A stretch of DNA of 64,000 nt from the sequence record MN013077.1; one strand, written 5' to 3'. Position 1 is the first letter of the stretch; each line of letters starts with the position of its first letter. The notes beneath the pieces were generated by a model. The model was not told the origin of the DNA, did no database searches, and saw only the letters and a list, made by a program, of their open reading frames with translations. The DNA comes from Klebsiella phage vB_KaeM_KaOmega. Positions 58,364 through 63,217 of this stretch are shown here, one piece after another. The position numbers and the translations under genes are program-made.

Positions 58364-58515
58364 ATCACCTGCCGGGGGCGGATGACCCCCGGAACCACGA
58401 ATACAAGGGTTACATTTGCCTTTGTTTTGTGTGCGGAAACAAATATCTTGGTCCAAAACGCTCGGTTATGTGCAATCTTTGTGCAAACGGTAAAAAGCCT
58501 GTTGACAAAGAGTAG
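58345..58515 (+). CDS. Cys-rich small protein (56 aa; CLCFVCGNK...CNLCANG)
   Basis: ORF track 58306..58515; ATG at 58345 with GGGGAG RBS-like sequence. Confidence 0.45.
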   Translation: MSARTFNHLPGADDPRNHEYKGYICLCFVCGNKYLGPKRSVMCNLCANGKKPVDKE

Positions 58516-58772
58516 GGCTACAGGTAATCTGAATATGTCCCGAACGAGATGACAATCAAGTAGGTGGATGGATAAGTCAACCCGGTCTGTTAAACGACCA
58601 AAGTGCCATTGCGGTTCGGGTTGAGTTCAGCCGGATAAACAGCGGCTCCATCGACGACCTCTGGAATAGCGACGGTTGCTTCAGGCCCTCGGGCCACCCG
58701 TAACGTGAAACATGTTTTTGCTGGACGAGAAGGGGAAGTCAACCCCACGGGCATACGTCCTCTGCCCATCTT

Positions 58773-58848
58773 GCTGGATTAGCTCAGAAGGTAGAGCGCC
58801 TCACTTGTAATGAGGATGTCGCGGGTTCGAATCCTGCATCCAGCACCA
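58773..58848 (+). tRNA. tRNA-Thr (anticodon TGT)
   Basis: hand-folded cloverleaf; TAGCTCAGAAGGTAGAGC D-arm; GGTTCGAATCC T-loop; encoded CCA. Confidence 0.8.
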
Positions 58849-58854
58849 GATCAT

Positions 58855-58931
58855 GCAACGTTGCCGGAGTCTGGTAACGGCTCTCGCTGCAAACGAGATG
58901 AGCACTGGTTCGAATCCAGTACGTTGCTCCA
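58855..58931 (+). tRNA. tRNA-Cys (anticodon GCA)
   Basis: acceptor GCAACGT/ACGTTGC; anticodon loop CTGCAAA; T-loop GGTTCGAATCC; CCA. Confidence 0.7.
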
Positions 58932-58932
58932 A

Positions 58933-59009
58933 GCGTCTTTGGTCCAATTGGTAGAGGCACTACACTCAAAATGTAGGGGTTCCCAGTTCGAATCTGGGAA
59001 GGCGCACCA
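58933..59009 (+). tRNA. tRNA with anticodon loop CTCAAAA (reads as CAA) but type-I, Trp-like body; isotype uncertain
   Basis: acceptor GCGTCTT/AAGGCGC; D-arm CCAATTGGTAGAGG; perfect T-arm; CCA. Confidence 0.55.
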
Positions 59010-59015
59010 CACATT

Positions 59016-59138
59016 GGCGACTGAGGTTGAGGAGAAATGGGAATCGCTCAGGCATGAGTAGACCATCTATCCAATAGGGCACTTCGCTCCCGGGTTGATC
59101 GCCGGGCTGTTCGGGTTCGAATCCTGGGGTCGCTGCCA
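59016..59138 (+). tRNA. atypically long tRNA-like element (123 nt): tRNA 3' half (GGTTCGAATCC, acceptor GGTCGCT-G-CCA) pairing with 5' GGCGACT across an extra insertion of about 45 nt
   Basis: hand-folded; the length does not fit a canonical tRNA. Confidence 0.35.
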
Positions 59139-59154
59139 ATTTTCATGTAACCTA

Positions 59155-59183
59155 TTGACATAGTGTAATTATGCTGCTAAGAT
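59155..59183 (+). promoter_or_regulatory. promoter TTGACA-N17-TAAGAT inside the tRNA region
   Basis: seen in sequence. Confidence 0.5.
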
Positions 59184-59209
59184 GAATACACTAACTCAAT
59201 GGGGGCATT

Positions 59210-59584
59210 ATGAGCAAGGCTGCGATTGTAACTCGTAAGCGTGGTCGCCCAAGCAAAGAAGAGAGCACAGCAATTGCCCTTGAAAAGGCAATGCTTGATC
59301 TCCGAGGCGAATTGGCCCGTCTGACGCCGAAGGCCATTACTACTCTCGAAAACCTGCTCACAACGGGTACAGAGAAGGTGAAGGAAACCACGGCGAAGTA
59401 TATCCTTGAGCAGGCTAAAGAGGTTAACAACCTCTACACTGAAGAGGATAACGAAGACGACGCAGCAGGCGGCACAACATCTGCCTCTTCTGAAACTCAC
59501 GCTGGTTCTTCTGACGAGATGAAAAATGCCATCCCGTTGACTACCCAGATTCGTGAGTATAAAGTAGTAGGTGAAGATGATTAA
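59210..59584 (+). CDS. hypothetical DNA-binding-like protein (124 aa; N-terminal RKRGRPSK AT-hook-like, acidic C-terminus)
   Basis: ORF track; GGGGG RBS-like sequence. Confidence 0.6.
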   Translation: MSKAAIVTRKRGRPSKEESTAIALEKAMLDLRGELARLTPKAITTLENLLTTGTEKVKETTAKYILEQAKEVNNLYTEEDNEDDAAGGTTSASSETHAGSSDEMKNAIPLTTQIREYKVVGEDD

Positions 59585-59587
59585 TTG

Positions 59588-59614
59588 GAAGGCTCCCGAA
59601 GGAGCCTTTATTAG
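59588..59614 (+). terminator. hairpin AGGCTCCCGAAGGAGCCT + TTATT (weak terminator)
   Basis: seen in sequence. Confidence 0.5.
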
Positions 59615-59749
59615 AAGTTCTCTTTTGACGGGCACTTGTTAACGACCCGCAGCATGGCGTCGGTGTACAACGGCGTTTGATGGCGAGGAAGGTCTATAGG
59701 GATCAGCGCAGATCCTTGGATATCAGGTGAGCCGTACAAAAGAGAATTT

Positions 59750-59837
59750 GGGGAGTTATTTCCGTAGAGGTAGCGGTGCAGACTGTAAATCTGTTGTCAT
59801 TGCGACTCGGGTGGTTCGACTCCATCACTCCCCACCA
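59750..59837 (+). tRNA. tRNA-Tyr (anticodon GTA), type II
   Basis: anticodon loop CTGTAAA; long variable arm; T-loop GGTTCGACTCC; CCA. Confidence 0.8.
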
Positions 59838-59843
59838 AATTTT

Positions 59844-59938
59844 AGTAGGATGGCTGAGTGGCTTAAAGCAGCATCTTGGAAAGGTGTCGGTCGCAGTGAC
59901 CCTGCGGCCCGGGAGTTCAAATCTCCCTCCTACTGCCA
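59844..59938 (+). tRNA. tRNA-Ser (anticodon GGA), type II
   Basis: anticodon loop TTGGAAA; long variable arm; T-loop GAGTTCAAATCTCCC; CCA. Confidence 0.65.
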
Positions 59939-59942
59939 GATC

Positions 59943-60020
59943 GGATCGTTAGCTCAATTGGTTAGCAGCAAGGCACTTTTAATGCCGAGGTTCGGGGTTC
60001 GAGTCCCTGACGGTCCACCA
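59943..60020 (+). tRNA. tRNA-Lys (anticodon TTT)
   Basis: TAGCTCAATTGGTTAG D-arm; loop CTTTTAA; T-loop GGTTCGAGTCC; CCA. Confidence 0.7.
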
Positions 60021-60180
60021 GAAAGAAGAGGGTCCAAGCTGGTACTGAGTGCGAAAGCATACTCTAAGCCCAGATGGAGGCCACCCTGAAGTCGTCCAAC
60101 TGAAGGTCCCTGGTTGAGTAATACTTCCCCGCCTGTCGGGTACAGTTCTCAGTCACACCTGACGGGGCGCACCCAATTAT

Positions 60181-60256
60181 TGGTCTTTCGTATAATCGGT
60201 TATTACGGCGGACTGTTAATCCGTTTATCCGGGTTCGAGTCCCGGAGGACCAGCCA
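60181..60256 (+). tRNA. tRNA-Asn (anticodon GTT)
   Basis: anticodon arm GGCGGACTGTTAATCCG identical to E. coli tRNA-Asn; U1 start; CCA. Confidence 0.85.
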
Positions 60257-60306
60257 AACACTAAGTGTACTTAATCAATAGTCATTTCGATGGCTATTCG
60301 TTAAAA

Positions 60307-60384
60307 GCACCTATCGTCTAATTGGAATAGGACACCGACCTTTCACGTCGGCAAATACGGGTTCGAGTCCCGTTGGGTGTACCA
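60307..60384 (+). tRNA. tRNA-Glu (anticodon TTC)
   Basis: anticodon arm CCGACCTTTCACGTCGG; T-loop GGTTCGAGTCC; CCA. Confidence 0.7.
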
Positions 60385-60390
60385 GTTTTT

Positions 60391-60471
60391 AGGTTGGTAG
60401 ATTAATGGAGTTGTGGAACTCCACCGGGTTCCAACCCCGGCTCCGGGGGTTCGACTCCTCACCTTCCTGCC
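60391..60471 (+). tRNA. atypical tRNA-like element: His-like anticodon arm with an 8-nt loop TTGTGGAA, an extra hairpin CCGGGTTCCAACCCCGG, poor acceptor pairing
   Basis: hand-folded; D-loop GGTTGGTAG and T-loop GGTTCGACTCC present; ends in CCA. Confidence 0.35.
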
Positions 60472-60587
60472 ATCTTTGAGGTGTTACAGTTAAATCCTGT
60501 GTCGGAAGTGCGAATCGCGCGATAGCTGCCAATTGACAACGGGTAAGGCTGTACAGGACTCGGACTCCCATCTCAAAACCAAATTCA

Positions 60588-60663
60588 GGTCCTATGGTAT
60601 CAGCGGTAAACATACTCGCCTGTCACGCGAGAGTCACGGGTTCGAATCCCGTTAGGACCGCCA
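60588..60663 (+). tRNA. tRNA-Asp (anticodon GTC)
   Basis: loop CTGTCAC with stem CTCGC/GCGAG; T-loop GGTTCGAATCC; CCA. Confidence 0.85.
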
Positions 60664-60667
60664 CTTT

Positions 60668-60743
60668 TGGGGATTAGCTCAGTTGGTAGAGCGCTCGACC
60701 GATAATCGAGAGGTCACTGGTTCAAGTCCAGTATCCCCAACCA
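60668..60743 (+). tRNA. tRNA-Ile (anticodon GAT; C at position 33)
   Basis: TAGCTCAGTTGGTAGAGC D-arm; loop CCGATAA; T-loop GGTTCAAGTCC; CCA. Confidence 0.75.
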
Positions 60744-60747
60744 CATA

Positions 60748-60824
60748 CGGTGTGTAGCTCAGTCTGGTAGAGCGATTGCTTTGGGAGCATTAGGTCCGAG
60801 GTTCGAGTCCTCGTACACCGACCA
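60748..60824 (+). tRNA. tRNA-Pro (anticodon TGG)
   Basis: loop TTTGGGA; T-loop GGTTCGAGTCC; 3' end CACCGACCA. Confidence 0.8.
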
Positions 60825-60830
60825 AATTAT

Positions 60831-60905
60831 TGCGAGGTAGTTCAGCGGTAGAACAGGGGTTTCATACGCCTCATGTCGGCAGTTCGATTCTGCCCTTCGC
60901 AACCA
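60831..60905 (+). tRNA. tRNA-Met (anticodon CAT; elongator- or Ile2-type)
   Basis: loop TTCATAC; 1-72 base-paired; T-loop GTTCGATTC; CCA. Confidence 0.7.
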
Positions 60906-60911
60906 AATTAT

Positions 60912-60989
60912 GCTCCAGTAGCCCAATTGGTAGAGGCACTTGATTTAGGATCATGTCAGTGATGAGTTCGAATCTCTCCTGGAGTACCA
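60912..60989 (+). tRNA. tRNA-like gene with weak stems; anticodon loop TTTAGGA (reads TAG) on a type-I body; isotype uncertain, possibly a pseudo-tRNA
   Basis: D-arm CCAATTGGTAGAGG as in the tRNA at 58933; T-stem only 3 bp. Confidence 0.4.
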
Positions 60990-60995
60990 TATAAA

Positions 60996-61072
60996 GCATC
61001 CATAGTGTCAGCGGCCTAACACTCCGTCCTTCCAAGTCGGAACCCTCGGTTCGAATCCGAGTGGATGCTCCA
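60996..61072 (+). tRNA. tRNA-Gly (anticodon TCC)
   Basis: loop CTTCCAA; T-loop GGTTCGAATCC; 3' GCTCCA. Confidence 0.8.
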
Positions 61073-61112
61073 ATTTAATTGCCCGTGGTGATCGGGTTAT
61101 CTCACCCAGTGT

Positions 61113-61188
61113 AGGGGATTAGTTTAATTGGCAAAACAGCGGGTTTTGATCCCGCTAGCGCGAGGTTCGAATCCTCCATCCCCCGCCA
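61113..61188 (+). tRNA. tRNA-Gln (anticodon TTG); A1-C72 unpaired
   Basis: anticodon stem GCGGG/CCCGC with loop TTTTGAT; D-stem GTTT/AAAC; CCA. Confidence 0.75.
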
Positions 61189-61258
61189 AACTAAAGGGTT
61201 TTCGAAATGGTAGCGCTGCCGCTCTGCAAACCCACACGCAAAGCTGCGAGAACCCTTT
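61189..61258 (+). ncRNA. structured RNA element: 10-bp inverted repeat CTAAAGGGTT...AACCCTTTAG enclosing a CTGCAAA loop-like segment; not a canonical tRNA
   Basis: seen in sequence between two tRNAs; no T-loop. Confidence 0.3.
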
Positions 61259-61261
61259 AGT

Positions 61262-61337
61262 GTGGCCTTAATTCAGTAGGTAGAATCCCCGGTTGTGAAC
61301 CGGGCAGTCGTGGGTTCAAGTCCCACAGGTCACCCCA
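61262..61337 (+). tRNA. tRNA-His (anticodon GTG; discriminator C)
   Basis: anticodon stem CCCGG/CCGGG with loop TTGTGAA; T-loop GGTTCAAGTCC; C73 then CCA. Confidence 0.8.
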
Positions 61338-61350
61338 ATTTGAGGTGTTT

Positions 61351-62016
61351 ATGAACGAAATGATGATCGTCTCTTCCCCGCAAGGAGGCAAGTATCTTCC
61401 CCCTCCGGCCCCGACGGGGTATCAATTTTTGGCAGTAGCCGACAACTCCATGACTCCCGACCTGGCAGGAAACAAAATCTCCACTAACAGAAGCGGGGTG
61501 AGTAAAGATGTTGTGGACGGTCACGATGTTATACTGAACACTCAGGGCGGCTTCATCCAATACAATTACGGATTGAACCTGTCCGCTATCAGACGTGGAG
61601 CCAGGATAGACACTATGGTGTATCTTGATCCTGCTGTAGATTTTTACCCCTCCGGCTTATACCCCACGATGGTAGGTTTCGCAGGCATCGACACCCTAGA
61701 TTATTGGTCCTTCGGTGTCAAATTTTTAAATGGGGCCACTGTTCTTTGCTTCTATGTATGGGACGGCTCCAATCCGGTACAACTCAACAGTACAGTTCCT
61801 ATCAACAAGGGCTGGCACCTATTGAGCTACGAAATGAAAGCAGACGGCGTTCATTTGTATGTCGATGAGAAAGAAGTGTTGTTCCGGGCAGTAAGTAACA
61901 CCGAATTTCAAACTTGGTCAAATGCCCAAGGTGGAGTTTCAGCCTCTCCTCTGACCCTTTTCAGAGCAGCAGGTCAACTTCTCCGCACAAGAACAGCTTG
62001 GACAAGTATCAAATAA
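61351..62016 (+). CDS. hypothetical protein (221 aa) embedded in the tRNA cluster
   Basis: ORF track 61345..62016 (GTG); ATG at 61351 with GAGGTG RBS-like sequence. Confidence 0.6.
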   Translation: MNEMMIVSSPQGGKYLPPPAPTGYQFLAVADNSMTPDLAGNKISTNRSGVSKDVVDGHDVILNTQGGFIQYNYGLNLSAIRRGARIDTMVYLDPAVDFYPSGLYPTMVGFAGIDTLDYWSFGVKFLNGATVLCFYVWDGSNPVQLNSTVPINKGWHLLSYEMKADGVHLYVDEKEVLFRAVSNTEFQTWSNAQGGVSASPLTLFRAAGQLLRTRTAWTSIK

Positions 62017-62027
62017 TGGAAGATAGG

Positions 62028-62110
62028 GCGTAGTGGTACGCACCCGGATTTGAACCCCGGCCCGCTGTGGCGACCCCACGGTGATAGTTCGACTCTATTA
62101 TCTTCCGCCA
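62028..62110 (+). tRNA. tRNA-Ser (anticodon TGA), type II
   Basis: acceptor GGAAGAT/ATCTTCC-G-CCA resembling E. coli tRNA-Ser(UGA); loop TTTGAAC; long variable arm. Confidence 0.65.
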
Positions 62111-62114
62111 ATTT

Positions 62115-62201
62115 AGAAGAGTGGCGAAATAGGTAGCCGCACCGGACTGCTAATCCGGGGTCCCTCGGGGCCTGAGAGTTCAAGTCTCTCCTCTTCTGCC
62201 A
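62115..62201 (+). tRNA. tRNA-Ser (anticodon GCT), type II
   Basis: anticodon stem CCGGA/TCCGG with loop CTGCTAA; long variable arm; T-loop GAGTTCAAGTCTCTC; CCA. Confidence 0.8.
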
Positions 62202-62206
62202 AACAT

Positions 62207-62282
62207 GGAACTGTAGCTCAGTTGGTAGAGCGGTTGCCTGAAGAGCAGCGCGTCAGCGGTTCAAATCCGTTCAGTTCCACCA
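62207..62282 (+). tRNA. tRNA-Phe (anticodon GAA)
   Basis: TAGCTCAGTTGGTAGAGC; loop CTGAAGA; T-loop GGTTCAAATCC; CCA. Confidence 0.85.
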
Positions 62283-62322
62283 AATTCCAATAAGAATAAA
62301 ATATCTCCTCTCCTTCGCCTCA

Positions 62323-62352
62323 GTGCCCTCCCTTCGTGGAGGGCTTTTTTAT
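62323..62352 (+). terminator. terminator GCCCTCCCTTCGTGGAGGGC + TTTTTT at the end of the tRNA cluster
   Basis: seen in sequence. Confidence 0.75.
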
Positions 62353-62392
62353 TTGTACTTTCGGTGATAAAATACTCGAAAGGAGGATTCAA

Positions 62393-63217
62393 ATGCTTGA
62401 ACTTTTAGCGATGACTGGCAAAAAGTACGACCCTGACCCGACAGACGTGCAAGGTCAGGTTTTCTTCACCGCCACTTCAGGAACTGATTGGACGGTTCCA
62501 GAGGGTGTCTATGCTATATCTGTTGTCTGTATTGGAGGAGGACAACCATCCGGATCAGGAAACACTTATGGTAAGAACGGCGGGGATCTCCGATGGAAGA
62601 ATAAGATTCCCGTCACCCCTGGTGAAATTCTGAGAATCCGGGCATCTGTTGCAACACCATATACATCAACATCAGGCCAAGCATCCAACATAGTCAGGAA
62701 AGACACTGGTGAAATTCTTCTTCAGGCAGGAGGGGGAGGAAATACCGTGGAGGTATCAACTCCGCTTGGTGGTGATGTTGGCGGCGGTAACGGAGGAAAA
62801 GGTAACGGGAGAGGCGGCGGCGGCGCTGGAGGTTATACTGGAGATGGCGGGATGGGAGAGATGAATGGTACTTCCGGTCAGCCCGGTTCAGGAGGCGGCG
62901 GAGGAGGAGGGTCTTACTACCGTTACAACACAAACTATTATGGCGCTGGAGGAGGTGGTACAGGTGTCCACGGACAAGGTAACAACGGTAGCGGAGGTAC
63001 TTCAGGAACAAATCCTTCCGCAGCAGGGGGAAGGTATGGCAGTTGGTTCTCAACAACACCTACGGCACAGAGACCAACGATAGGCAACGGACCTAACGCA
63101 GGGGATTTCGGAGGCGGAGCGGGAGGATCATCTGGTTATAATGGTTCCAGAGGTGCTGTCAGAATCATCTGGGGGAAAGGTCGTGAATTTCCTTCGACGG
63201 AGACTCAAGATGTCTAA
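62393..63217 (+). CDS. very glycine-rich protein (274 aa; runs such as GGGGGGGS, GGGNGGKGNGRGGGGAGG)
   Basis: ORF track 62336..63217; ATG at 62393 with AAAGGAGGATTC RBS-like sequence. Confidence 0.65.
   Translation: MLELLAMTGKKYDPDPTDVQGQVFFTATSGTDWTVPEGVYAISVVCIGGGQPSGSGNTYGKNGGDLRWKNKIPVTPGEILRIRASVATPYTSTSGQASNIVRKDTGEILLQAGGGGNTVEVSTPLGGDVGGGNGGKGNGRGGGGAGGYTGDGGMGEMNGTSGQPGSGGGGGGGSYYRYNTNYYGAGGGGTGVHGQGNNGSGGTSGTNPSAAGGRYGSWFSTTPTAQRPTIGNGPNAGDFGGGAGGSSGYNGSRGAVRIIWGKGREFPSTETQDV

What the first reader, a model, noticed from the sequence alone, without database searches (positions are those of the whole stretch)
58933..60989. Non-canonical tRNA-like genes in the tRNA cluster (123-nt element, 8-nt anticodon-loop His-like element, type-I tRNAs reading CAA/TAG)
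Hand folding gives about 18 canonical tRNAs but four oddities. (1) 59016-59138 has a perfect T-arm, acceptor and CCA, but about 45 extra nucleotides. (2) 60391-60471 has a His-like anticodon arm (compare the genuine tRNA-His loop TTGTGAA at 61262-61337) with one extra G giving an 8-nt loop TTGTGGAA, plus an additional hairpin; this is a possible +1 frameshift-suppressor-like or decoy tRNA. (3) 58933-59009 and (4) 60912-60989 share a Trp-like D-arm yet present anticodon loops CTCAAAA and TTTAGGA (CAA/TAG, Leu codons) on short type-I bodies. These could be recoding tRNAs, tRNA mimics that titrate anticodon nucleases, or pseudogenes. My folds are manual, so the level of error is non-trivial.
Basis: partly seen in the sequence, partly recalled or inferred. 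Interest (0 to 1): 0.55.

Follow-up and report, generated by a model that had tools for sequence, protein, structure and literature searches.

The report
Odd tRNA-like genes in phage cluster
In this phage tRNA cluster, two of the four "odd" genes are ordinary phage-type short leucine tRNAs, one is an overlooked, oddly built tryptophan tRNA, and one is a conserved tRNA-shaped RNA of unknown role that resembles phage T4's long-unexplained RNAC.

Summary
The window is a Certrevirus (CR3/CR8/CR9/phiTE group) and 58773-62282 is its tRNA cluster.

- **Elements 3 and 4 (58933-59009, 60912-60989):** These are normal 7-nt-loop tRNA-Leu(CAA) and tRNA-Leu(TAG) with short variable loops. They belong to a widespread phage lineage of short tRNA-Leu that keeps the E. 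coli LeuRS determinants. They are ordinary for phages.
- **Element 2 (60391-60472):** This was misread. The "His-like 8-nt anticodon loop" is the D-arm. The "extra hairpin" is the anticodon arm, with loop UUCCAAC and anticodon CCA (Trp). It carries A1-U72, G2-C71, G3-C70 and G73. The cloverleaf covaries across 11 phages, and no GenBank record annotates it. It is still non-canonical: an invariant 8-9-nt acceptor-to-D connector, and tandem pyrimidine mismatches at 4:69 and 5:68.
- **Element 1 (59016-59138):** This is real. It has an acceptor, a T-arm and GCCA. A 63-nt arm replaces the D-arm, and a hairpin carries an 8-nt loop GUUGAUCG with no purine 37. Seven pairs covary. It has no Rfam match. 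Shorter relatives occur in Ackermannviridae and in metagenomes. Its architecture matches T4 RNAC, whose function is unknown.

Frameshift-suppressor, recoding and pseudogene readings are not supported.

The parts
58933..59009 (+). Element 3: tRNA-Leu(CAA), 77 nt, short 5-nt variable loop. Carries A73, a Leu-type D-arm and U48.
   Evidence: ARAGORN. Rfam tRNA 54.9 bits. 96-99% identical in CR3, CR8, PBES02 and F1M1E, where it is annotated tRNA-Leu. Aligned with T4 and E. coli tRNA-Leu.
59016..59138 (+). Element 1: 123-nt tRNA-like RNA as a whole.
   Evidence: RNAalifold gives 38 pairs, 7 of them with compensatory change. 99.6% of cells are paired and 0 of 500 shuffles reach the observed covariation. 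No Rfam hit. Unannotated in every record that holds it.
59016..59022 (+). Element 1 acceptor stem, 5' strand (GGCGACT). It pairs with 59128-59134 (GGTCGCT). G73 is at 59135 and CCA at 59136-59138.
   Evidence: Pairs 4:69 and 6:67 change on both sides in phiTE.
59023..59085 (+). Element 1 long irregular arm, in the place of a D-arm. Its terminal hairpin is CTCA-GGCA-TGAG.
   Evidence: Five compensatory pairs lie within this arm.
59089..59106 (+). Element 1 hairpin CCCGG-GTTGATCG-CCGGG. The 8-nt loop is at 59094-59101.
   Evidence: The loop N-UUGAUC-N is invariant and the stem covaries in IME250, Vi01, L161 and L065.
59111..59127 (+). Element 1 T-arm (TCGGG TTCGAAT CCTGG).
   Evidence: One-sided changes keep the pairing.
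60391..60472 (+). Element 2: 82-nt non-canonical tRNA-Trp(CCA)-like gene.
   Evidence: ARAGORN -ps calls tRNA-Trp(cca). Covariation is shown. Conserved in 11 phages. Unannotated in all 20 records.
60391..60398 (+). Element 2 acceptor, 5' strand AGGUUGG(U). It pairs with 60461-60468. U.U mismatches sit at 4:69 and 5:68. G73 is at 60469 and CCA at 60470-60472.
   Evidence: This register is 6-7 kcal/mol better than ARAGORN's register in three lineages. Invariant in the alignment.
60399..60406 (+). Element 2 oversized acceptor-to-D connector (AGAUUAAU, or 9 nt counting U8). A normal tRNA has 2 nt here.
   Evidence: Invariant in 11 sequences.
60407..60422 (+). Element 2 D-arm GGAG-TTGTGGAA-CTCC.
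   Evidence: Three of its 4 pairs change on both sides. The GG in the loop is invariant.
60424..60440 (+). Element 2 anticodon arm CCGGG-TTCCAAC-CCCGG. The anticodon CCA is at 60431-60433.
   Evidence: The first six loop bases UUCCAA are invariant in 11 sequences and the last is C or A. One pair is compensatory.
60446..60460 (+). Element 2 T-arm (GGGG TTCGACT CCTC, 4 bp).
   Evidence: One compensatory G-C to C-G change.
60912..60989 (+). Element 4: tRNA-Leu(TAG), 78 nt, short variable loop, A73. The T-stem has mismatches at 49:65 and 50:64.
   Evidence: ARAGORN. Rfam 44.1 bits. 100% identical in CR8 and CR9. 76-84% identical to annotated tRNA-Leu genes of mycobacteriophage, Streptomyces, Gordonia, Felixounavirus and Vibrio phages.

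Best explanation
The four elements are three different things, all transcribed and processed as part of a Certrevirus tRNA operon.

(a) 58933-59009 and 60912-60989 are working leucine tRNAs of a phage-wide lineage that has lost the long variable arm. The host LeuRS should charge them through A73 and the D/T-loop elbow elements (A15-U48, G18G19, A20a). In E. coli these elements suffice without the variable arm. That they are charged here is inferred.

(b) 60391-60472 is a selected tRNA-Trp(CCA) gene with all the known bacterial Trp determinants that sequence can show. Its 5' side is aberrant: a 7-8-bp acceptor with tandem pyrimidine mismatches, then an 8-9-nt connector. This is why gene finders and all GenBank records miss it. 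It most likely supplies Trp-tRNA during infection (inferred). A non-translational role is possible, because the same acceptor mismatch is conserved in T4 RNAC.

(c) 59016-59138 is a non-decoding tRNA-like RNA. An acceptor/T-arm minihelix with GCCA should make it an RNase P and CCA-end substrate (inferred). It has no D-arm and no usable anticodon loop. It is the Certrevirus member of a small phage family defined by a covarying hairpin with the invariant loop N-UUGAUC-N, and it has the same architecture as T4 RNAC. Its most likely action is as a stable tRNA mimic that binds a tRNA-recognising protein. This last step is a guess.
For: **Identity of the window:** megablast gives 92-96% identity to Certrevirus tRNA clusters.

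**(a) The Leu tRNAs:**
- ARAGORN and Rfam call both as tRNAs.
- Homologous 75-80-nt tRNA-Leu genes with anticodons CAG, TAG, TAA and CAA occur in Bixzunavirus, Schizotequatrovirus, Felixounavirus, Myunavirus, Seunavirus, and Streptomyces and Gordonia phages.
- The alignment shows the same D-arm and A73 as class-II T4 and E. coli tRNA-Leu, with only the variable arm deleted.
- E. coli leucine identity depends on A73, A15-U48, G18G19 and A20a, and not on the variable arm (PMC9976931).

**(b) The Trp-like gene:**
- Five pairs change on both sides, 0 of 500 shuffles reach the observed covariation, and all slid controls are lower.
- Sequence conservation starts exactly at A1 and stops at CCA.
- Trp identity elements are G73, the anticodon and the first pair (PMC9976931).

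**(c) The tRNA-like RNA:**
- 37 of 38 pairs are kept in phiTE despite about 21% divergence, and 7 pairs are compensatory.
- It is a cassette-like indel bounded by CCA ends.
- The homologous 71-nt form in Serratia phage IME250 scores 36.8 bits, E about 1e-4. A form also occurs in Vi01.
- The hairpin stem covaries while the loop stays fixed.
- None of 24 chance pattern matches in bacterial genomes forms the full 5-bp version of this hairpin; three reach 4 of 5 pairs.
- T4 RNAC has the same domain order, supported by 11 compensatory pairs.
Against: - There are no expression, processing or aminoacylation data for any element.
- E. coli LeuRS failed to charge the type-I tRNA-Leu(CAA) of Streptomyces coelicolor (PMC6614811), so charging of the short Leu tRNAs by an enterobacterial LeuRS is not guaranteed.
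- In element 2 the acceptor and connector are invariant, so covariation cannot test that part of the fold. A14 is not conserved in its D-loop. G4-C69 and G5-C68, which are determinants in B. subtilis tRNA-Trp, are mismatched.
- Element 1 is absent from about half of the sampled Certrevirus genomes, so it is dispensable.
- All compensatory changes in element 1 come from a single divergent lineage (phiTE).
- The wider N-UUGAUC-N family was collected with a pattern that fixed the loop, and I selected the hits by eye.
Confidence: 0.6

Rival explanations
1. One reading: a His-like tRNA with an 8-nt anticodon loop UUGUGGAA that acts as a +1 frameshift suppressor or decoy.
For: The hairpin GGAG-UUGUGGAA-CUCC exists. 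In the window lineage it resembles the tRNA-His loop UUGUGAA.
Against: - The loop sequence is not conserved. It is UAUGGCA in POP17 and AAAGGCC in CR3. Only the GG expected of G18G19 is kept.
- The hairpin sits where a D-arm sits.
- The next hairpin has an invariant 7-nt loop beginning UUCCAA, with U33 and A37.
- ARAGORN -ps calls tRNA-Trp(cca) in 9 genomes.
Confidence: 0.02
2. Elements 1 and 2 are decaying tRNA pseudogenes, left behind by the recombination and homing-endonuclease traffic of the cluster, and have no function.
For: - Neither is called by default gene finders.
- Element 1 is present or absent among close relatives.
- The cluster is visibly reshuffled and carries HNH endonuclease insertions in relatives.
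- Nucleotides 4-11 of element 2 (UUGGUAGA) look like a displaced D-loop. This is read directly from the sequence.
Against: - Compensatory substitutions occur in three helices of element 2 and four helices of element 1.
- Conservation boundaries are sharp, running from position 1 to CCA.
- Element 2 is kept in 11 of the 14 genomes compared (the window plus 13 relatives), including lineages 20-26% divergent.
Confidence: 0.1
3. Element 1, and possibly element 2, is a decoy for a host tRNA-targeting defence, such as an anticodon nuclease or an acceptor-end-modifying toxin. Its loop UUGAU copies U34-U38 of tRNA-Gln(UUG). The tRNA-shaped body would titrate the enzyme without being consumed in translation.
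For: - UUGAU(C) is exactly the anticodon-plus-37/38 string of the tRNA-Gln(UUG) genes that made up 71 of the first 80 metagenome pattern hits that were classified.
- The family is confined to phage tRNA clusters.
- Phages of this genus already use an RNA mimic, phiTE pseudo-ToxI, in this very cluster.
- Phage tRNAs that counter PARIS and retron nucleases are established; this is from my own knowledge.
Against: - No defence system that targets tRNA-Gln or tRNA-Trp in these hosts was identified here.
- The loop has 8 nt, and G or A replaces U33.
- The phage also carries a normal tRNA-Gln(UUG).
- Element 1 is dispensable in many relatives.
Confidence: 0.15
4. Element 1 is a true decoding tRNA with a giant D-arm insertion and an 8-membered anticodon loop, for example quadruplet or unconventional reading.
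For: - A 5-bp stem, a 4-nt variable loop and a T-arm follow the hairpin in the right order and spacing.
- G73 with a weak 1:72 pair recalls tRNA-Gln.
Against: - In either loop register, position 37 would be a pyrimidine, and U33 is replaced in one register.
- There is no D-loop GG to form the elbow.
- The mini forms have only 10-14 unpaired nt in place of the D-arm.
- No gene finder or covariance model accepts it.
Confidence: 0.05
5. The short Leu-anticodon tRNAs are charged with another amino acid (for example Trp, as the D-arm suggested to the reader) and recode UUG/CUA.
Against: - The discriminator is A73 (Leu), not G73 (Trp).
- The D-arm matches tRNA-Leu of T4 and E. coli better.
- TrpRS needs the CCA anticodon (PMC9976931).
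- The lineage spans all Leu anticodons.
Confidence: 0.02

Closest known systems
Phage-encoded short tRNA-Leu genes (e.g. KVP40 tRNA-Leu-3, Mycobacterium phage Cali gene 80, Felixounavirus SP116, Myunavirus My1, Seunavirus 4MG)
   Same: Length is 75-80 nt. They share the D-arm G(Y)CCAAYUGGYAGAGGC, the T-loop UUCGAAU, A73 and Leu anticodons. Identity to element 4 reaches 84%.
   Different: Nothing essential. Elements 3 and 4 are members of this lineage. Element 4 has a weakened T-stem.
Class-II tRNA-Leu of T4 and E. coli
   Same: G1-C72, U8, a 3-bp D-stem, the D-loop AAUUGGUAGA, A15/U48 and A73.
   Different: The roughly 10-nt variable stem-loop is missing.
Type-I tRNA-Leu(CAA) of Streptomyces coelicolor (PMC6614811)
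   Same: A bacterial-world tRNA-Leu without the long variable arm.
   Different: It is a cellular gene and its own LeuRS is adapted to it. E. coli LeuRS did not charge it. Homology with the phage lineage was not tested.
Bacterial tRNA-Trp
   Same: Element 2 has anticodon CCA in loop UUCCAAC, an anticodon stem CCGGN/NCCGG like that of E. coli tRNA-Trp (from memory), A1-U72, G2-C71, G3-C70, G73 and a canonical T-loop.
   Different: It has 8-9 nt instead of 2 between the acceptor and D stems. It has mismatches at 4:69 and 5:68, a 4-bp T-stem, and A14 is not conserved.
Phage T4 RNAC (species 1 RNA, rnaC)
   Same: It lies in a tRNA cluster. The domain order is the same as in element 1: 7-bp acceptor, long arm starting at position 8, a second hairpin, then a T-arm with loop UUCGAAU. 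The tandem U.U at 4:69 and 5:68 is conserved in RNAC and is also present in element 2. The function of RNAC is unknown (PMC3014915, PMC9697503).
   Different: There is no detectable sequence homology. The model built from element 1 scores 19 bits, E 0.26, which is no better than ordinary tRNAs score. RNAC has no encoded CCA and its hairpin loop differs (CGUCAA).
+1 frameshift-suppressor tRNAs and yeast mitochondrial tRNA-Thr1 (8-nt anticodon loops)
   Same: The element 1 hairpin has an 8-nt loop on a 5-bp stem.
   Different: Those are otherwise complete tRNAs with a purine at position 37. Element 1 lacks a D-arm and a purine 37. The 8-nt loop in element 2 is a D-loop.
tRNA-Sec and allo-tRNAs (8/5, 8/4, 9/3 folds)
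   Same: Element 2 can be drawn with an 8-bp acceptor and a 4-bp T-stem. Its best Rfam hit is the tRNA-Sec model.
   Different: The score is 30.3 bits against a gathering score of 47. The anticodon is CCA, not UCA. There is no long variable arm and the connector is long.

Membership tests
Canonical elongator tRNA (Rfam RF00005 / ARAGORN cloverleaf) | Called by standard tools at default thresholds | tested here: met
   Elements 3 and 4 only: ARAGORN, and Rfam 54.9 and 44.1 bits against a gathering score of 29.
Canonical elongator tRNA (Rfam RF00005 / ARAGORN cloverleaf) | Seven-bp acceptor without mismatches and a 2-nt connector to the D stem | tested here: not met
   Element 2 has two mismatches and an 8-9-nt connector. 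ARAGORN finds it only with -ps. Its best Rfam hit is tRNA-Sec, below threshold.
Canonical elongator tRNA (Rfam RF00005 / ARAGORN cloverleaf) | D-arm with G18G19, and a 7-nt anticodon loop with U33 and purine 37 | tested here: not met
   Element 1 has no D-arm, and its loop is the 8-nt GUUGAUCG. No tool calls it. Element 2 does meet this feature.
Bacterial tRNA-Leu (E. coli identity set) | A73 discriminator | tested here: met
   Elements 3 and 4 both end ...A-CCA.
Bacterial tRNA-Leu (E. coli identity set) | A15-U48, G18G19 and A20a in the D-loop (PMC9976931) | tested here: met
   The D-loop CAAUUGGUAGA is identical to E. coli from A14 onwards, and U precedes the T-stem.
Bacterial tRNA-Leu (E. 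coli identity set) | Long variable arm (class II) | tested here: not met
   The variable loops are 5-6 nt. This arm is not an identity element in E. coli.
Bacterial tRNA-Leu (E. coli identity set) | Leucylation by host LeuRS | not testable with these tools
   This needs an aminoacylation assay. E. coli LeuRS failed on the S. coelicolor type-I tRNA-Leu.
Phage short tRNA-Leu lineage | Full-length gap-free similarity to 75-80-nt tRNA-Leu genes of unrelated phages | tested here: met
   56 records match element 3 and 260 records match element 4; about three quarters or more of each cover at least 80% of the query. Eight sequences were read and aligned.
Bacterial tRNA-Trp | Anticodon CCA, G73 and the first base pair A1-U72 | tested here: met
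   Element 2. Identity set taken from PMC9976931.
Bacterial tRNA-Trp | G4-C69 and G5-C68 (determinants in B. subtilis) | tested here: not met
   U.U and U/C.U in all 11 copies.
Bacterial tRNA-Trp | Charging by TrpRS and use in translation | not testable with these tools
   Needs an experiment.
+1 frameshift-suppressor tRNA | Eight-nt anticodon loop in an otherwise complete tRNA | tested here: not met
   In element 2 the 8-nt loop is the D-loop, and the anticodon loop has 7 nt.
tRNA-Sec (RF01852) | Score above gathering, UCA anticodon and long variable arm | tested here: not met
   30.3 bits against 47, anticodon CCA and a 4-5-nt variable loop.
tmRNA | tRNA-Ala-like end (G3.U70) plus a tag reading frame | tested here: not met
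   ARAGORN finds no tmRNA. Element 1 has C3-G70 and is only 123 nt.
T4 RNAC-type tRNA-like RNA | Location in a phage tRNA cluster, and domain order acceptor, long arm, hairpin, T-arm | tested here: met
   Element 1 fold compared with the RNAC fold.
T4 RNAC-type tRNA-like RNA | Sequence or covariance-model homology to RNAC | tested here: not met
   The model built from element 1 scores 19 bits, E 0.26, on T4 rnaC, within the range of ordinary tRNAs.
ToxI / pseudo-ToxI antitoxin RNA | Similarity to the phiTE pseudo-ToxI repeats | tested here: not met
   Only chance 12-17-nt matches in the window.

The most novel reading that the evidence does not exclude
Elements 1 and 2 may belong to an unrecognised class of phage 'para-tRNAs', which would also include T4 RNAC and the N-UUGAUC-N mini-RNAs of Ackermannviridae. 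These RNAs are matured like tRNAs but act outside decoding. Recurrent, selected departures would mark them: tandem U.U at acceptor positions 4:69 and 5:68, D-arm replacement, and a fixed loop that copies the tRNA-Gln anticodon. They would work as decoys or regulators of tRNA-binding host proteins such as nucleases, toxins, synthetases or EF-Tu.
Probability: 0.2. Interest if true: 0.75.

Novelty: new variant of a known kind. Interest (0 to 1): 0.5.

Why it matters
- **Annotation:** a covarying tRNA-Trp gene is missing from all 20 matching phage records (a few of which carry no annotation at all). Two or more structured RNAs in the cluster are also unannotated.
- **Short phage tRNA-Leu:** this lineage spans phages of Actinobacteria, Vibrio and Enterobacteria. 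I found no paper discussing it in the searchable library. It is a natural experiment on LeuRS recognition without the class-II arm.
- **T4 RNAC:** RNAC has had no function for 50 years. Element 1 shares its architecture and element 2 shares its acceptor mismatch. These give independent comparative handles and new genetic systems (Cronobacter, Pectobacterium, Enterobacter, Salmonella Vi01) for asking what such RNAs do.
- **Caveat:** none of this changes a paradigm unless a function is shown.

Tried and rejected
- **Element 1 with standard tools:** ARAGORN with intron and pseudogene options found nothing. Rfam at E up to 10 found nothing meaningful.
- **Literature:** searches for phage type-I tRNA-Leu, phage tRNA-like decoys and tRNA-cluster stable RNAs returned no paper on these elements.
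- **IMG/VR pattern scans:**
  - Scans for elements 1 and 2 returned only Certrevirus contigs plus chance matches.
  - The 145-nt elements in L067, L070 and L115 share G1.U72, GCCA, a long arm and UUGAUCGCC. Their hairpin register differs, the element 1 model scores them only 19-21 bits, and they match nothing in the phage collection. I do not count them as members.
- **Metagenome scan:** the hits that were classified were almost all ordinary tRNA-Gln(UUG).
- **Bacterial-genome scan:** only chance matches.
- **Minus-strand ORF over element 2:** F1M1E annotates this ORF as a hypothetical protein. I rejected it because lineages differ by 1- and 2-nt indels inside it.
- **ARAGORN's alternative acceptor register for element 2:** it is 6-7 kcal/mol worse.
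- **ENT3 'tRNA-Stop(tta)' call:** this is a hybrid artefact spanning tRNA-Glu and element 2.
- **Codon-usage explanation:** CUA is 2% and UUG 19% of Leu codons in 55 long ORFs, a rough ORF set.
- **ORFs embedded in the cluster:** they match only PHROGs of unknown function and no Pfam family.
- **pseudo-ToxI:** absent from the window.

Full report
**Context**

Megablast of 58500-62500 finds Certrevirus phages (Vequintavirinae): Cronobacter phages CR3, CR8, CR9 and PBES02, Enterobacter phages ENT3 and F1M1E, and Pectobacterium phages phiTE, CB7 and POP15/17. Identity is 86-96%. In all of them this region is the tRNA cluster upstream of the spanin genes.

ARAGORN at default settings finds 18 tRNAs on the + strand between 58773 and 62282. 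Rfam agrees for these. A tRNA-Tyr(GTA) at 59751-59838 is missed by ARAGORN but is annotated in relatives. A terminator at 62325-62344 closes the cluster.

**Elements 3 and 4 (58933-59009, 60912-60989)**

Both are called as tRNA-Leu(CAA) and tRNA-Leu(TAG) with standard 7-nt anticodon loops. Rfam tRNA scores are 54.9 and 44.1 bits.

They are not peculiar to this phage. Blastn finds gap-free, full-length homologues annotated as tRNA-Leu in 56 and 260 phage records. I read eight of them:
- Mycobacterium phage Cali (CAG)
- KVP40 (TAG)
- Felixounavirus SP116 (TAG)
- T5-like My1 (TAA)
- Streptomyces phage Alone3 (TAG)
- Gordonia phage GodonK (TAG)
- Seunavirus 4MG (TAA)
- Vibrio phage phi-ST2 (CAA)

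All are 75-78 nt.

They differ by deletion of the variable stem-loop. So the 'Trp-like D-arm' is the leucine D-arm.

According to the 2023 identity review, E. coli leucine identity rests on A73, A15-U48, G18G19 and A20a. The anticodon and long variable arm are dispensable, and even minimal tRNA-Leu without them is charged (PMC9976931). All of these elements are present in elements 3 and 4.

A caveat applies. E. coli LeuRS did not charge the type-I tRNA-Leu(CAA) of Streptomyces coelicolor (PMC6614811).

Codon usage gives no special reason for the tRNA-Leu(UAG) gene. CUA is 2% of Leu codons and UUG 19% in 55 long ORFs of the window.

Verdict: ordinary members of a phage-wide short tRNA-Leu lineage. 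I found no paper that discusses that lineage.

With the pseudogene threshold lowered, ARAGORN calls tRNA-Trp(cca) here and in eight relatives.

An alignment of 11 copies with 74-100% identity settles the fold.
- **D-arm.** Its loop varies in sequence but always contains GG.
- **Anticodon arm.** The next hairpin has an invariant loop UUCCAA(C/A), with U33, CCA and A37, and one compensatory stem pair.
- **T-arm.** It has a canonical loop UUCGAYY and one compensatory pair.

In total 5 pairs change on both sides. None of 500 shuffles reaches the observed covariation, and all slid controls are far lower.

The ends are A1-U72, G2-C71, G3-C70, G73 and CCA. Together with the anticodon, these form the bacterial Trp identity set. 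Conservation begins exactly at A1, after a U-rich leader 6 nt downstream of tRNA-Glu, and ends at CCA.

Two features are really non-canonical.
- The acceptor has invariant pyrimidine mismatches at 4:69 and 5:68.
- There are 8-9 invariant nucleotides (UAGAUUAAU) between the acceptor and D stems, where a normal tRNA has two.

This acceptor register is 6-7 kcal/mol better than ARAGORN's register in three lineages. It can be extended by U8-A65 to an 8/4 arrangement.

Rfam's best hit is the tRNA-Sec model at 30.3 bits, below its threshold of 47. None of the 20 phage records that hold the element annotates it. Some annotate a minus-strand ORF instead, but 1- and 2-nt indels between lineages exclude that ORF.

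**Element 1 (59016-59138)**

The element is present at 96-98% identity in ENT3, CR9, CR3, PcCB7V and CB7, and at about 79% in phiTE. It is absent from CR8, F1M1E, PBES02, POP15/17, DU_PP_I and P7_Pc. It is absent as a clean 129-nt cassette bounded by the CCA of tRNA-Leu and its own CCA.

RNAalifold gives this structure:
- a 7-bp acceptor
- a 63-nt irregular arm starting at position 8
- a hairpin CCCGG-GUUGAUCG-CCGGG
- a 4-nt variable loop
- a T-arm with loop UUCGAAU
- G73-CCA

The phiTE copy differs at about a fifth of positions yet keeps 37 of 38 pairs. Seven pairs changed on both sides: two in the acceptor and five in the long arm. None of 500 shuffles reaches this. All of this covariation comes from one lineage.

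There is no D-arm. The 8-nt loop has a pyrimidine where position 37 would be, so decoding is unlikely. Rfam has nothing. A strong sigma-70-like promoter starts 17 nt downstream, so element 1 ends the first transcription sub-unit (Thr-Cys-Leu-element 1).

**Relatives of element 1**

A covariance model of element 1 finds a 71-nt element in Serratia phage IME250 (Ackermannviridae), just 5' of tRNA-Tyr, at 36.8 bits. It has the same acceptor/T-arm/GCCA frame and the hairpin CCCGG-AUUGAUCA-CCGGG, with 14 unpaired nt instead of the long arm.

Salmonella phage Vi01 has the same element with stem UUCUGG/CCAGAA and loop GUUGAUCU, but without a 5' acceptor strand.

Pattern scans added a metagenomic copy, L161 (GCAAGG-GUUGAUCG-CCUUGC, next to a tRNA), and L065/L071 (CUCGG-GUUGAUCG-CCGAG).

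Across these the loop N-UUGAUC-N is fixed, while three stem pairs change on both sides. None of 24 chance matches of the same pattern in bacterial genomes forms the full hairpin.

Two caveats apply to this wider family. The pattern fixed the loop by construction, and I picked the hairpin-forming hits by eye.

UUGAU equals U34-U38 of tRNA-Gln(UUG), which made up nearly all other pattern hits. GAUC is self-complementary.

**Comparison with T4 RNAC**

T4 rnaC is a 139-nt stable RNA in the T4 tRNA cluster. It folds into the same domain order as element 1. Two divergent homologues support that fold with 11 compensatory pairs. Its role is still unknown (PMC3014915; PMC9697503).

Its acceptor is C-G, G-C, A-U, U.U, U.U, C-G, G-C. 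The tandem U.U at 4:69 and 5:68 is kept in all three phages while pair 3:70 covaries. These are the positions mismatched in element 2.

There is no sequence-level homology between element 1 and RNAC. The relation is therefore one of kind, not family.

**Mechanism**

What is shown:
- Elements 1 and 2 are selected RNA structures.
- Element 2 has a Trp anticodon loop and Trp acceptor determinants.
- Elements 3 and 4 carry the LeuRS determinants.

What is inferred:
- All four are co-transcribed and cut out by RNase P and 3' trimming like their neighbours.
- Elements 3 and 4 are leucylated.
- Element 2 is probably tryptophanylated and used in translation, but its RNAC-like acceptor leaves a non-translational role open.
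- Element 1 acts as a stable tRNA mimic.

Which protein such a mimic would bind cannot be said from sequence.

**Novelty**

Elements 3 and 4 are already annotated, although the lineage itself seems not to have been discussed. Element 2 is a new, unannotated variant of tRNA-Trp. Element 1 is a new variant, and a small family, of the phage tRNA-like stable RNA kind typified by T4 RNAC.

Overall interest is moderate.

Noticed in passing
window 59617-59750 (+): The spacer directly upstream of tRNA-Tyr folds into a closed multi-branch structure (MFE -55.4 kcal/mol, z = -5.2). In 7 Certrevirus copies it shows 46 predicted pairs, 6 of them compensatory. It is 97-100% identical in most relatives and is kept even in phiTE and CB7, which have lost most tRNAs. 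It has no Rfam match. It is a candidate further ncRNA.
   Followed up: partly
window 61189-61261 (+): A hairpin with a 15-bp closing stem lies between tRNA-Gln and tRNA-His (z = -4.4). Among the sampled relatives only F1M1E shares it.
   Followed up: partly
window 59751-59838 (+): tRNA-Tyr(GTA) with a weak D-arm is missed by ARAGORN at both default and pseudogene settings. The Rfam tRNA-Sec model scores it 32.9 bits. It is annotated as tRNA-Tyr in CR3, CR8 and F1M1E.
   Followed up: partly
L023 1909-2047 (-) (T4 rnaC); L218, L219: T4 RNAC has a conserved tandem U.U mismatch at acceptor positions 4:69 and 5:68, while the adjacent pair covaries. These are the same positions that are mismatched in element 2. 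RNAC homologues occur in 748 phage records, almost all unannotated.
   Followed up: partly
window 59155-59183 and 59210-59584 (+): A strong sigma-70-like promoter (10/12 matches, extended -10 TG) lies inside the tRNA cluster. It drives a conserved 124-aa ORF (phrog_3330, unknown function, no Pfam match).
   Followed up: partly
window 59010-59138 vs L001, L002, L010, L006: Element 1 plus its 6-nt spacer is gained or lost as an exact cassette between two ...CCA ends. This suggests recombination between neighbouring T-arm/CCA segments.
   Followed up: yes
L003 3106-3164 (phiTE): phiTE carries its pseudo-ToxI antitoxin mimic in this same cluster. The window has no counterpart.
   Followed up: yes
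L004 2824-2903; L009 2854-2933: CR3 and PcCB7V hold an 80-nt atypical 'tRNA-Glu(CTC)' with mismatched anticodon stem pairs and an odd variable region. It is absent from the window.
   Followed up: no
L067 1538-1682; L070 2777-2921; L115: 145-nt tRNA-like elements (G1.U72, GCCA, long arm, UUGAUCGCC, T-arm) lie between tRNA-Leu and tRNA-Ile/Ala in uncultured large-phage contigs. They match nothing in the phage collection, and their relation to element 1 is uncertain.
   Followed up: partly
window 60021-60180 and 60473-60587 (+): These are long conserved spacers between tRNA genes with no significant fold (z = 0.4 and -1.1). The first ends in ...GGGGCGCACCCA, which resembles a tRNA 3' end and may be a gene remnant.
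   Followed up: no
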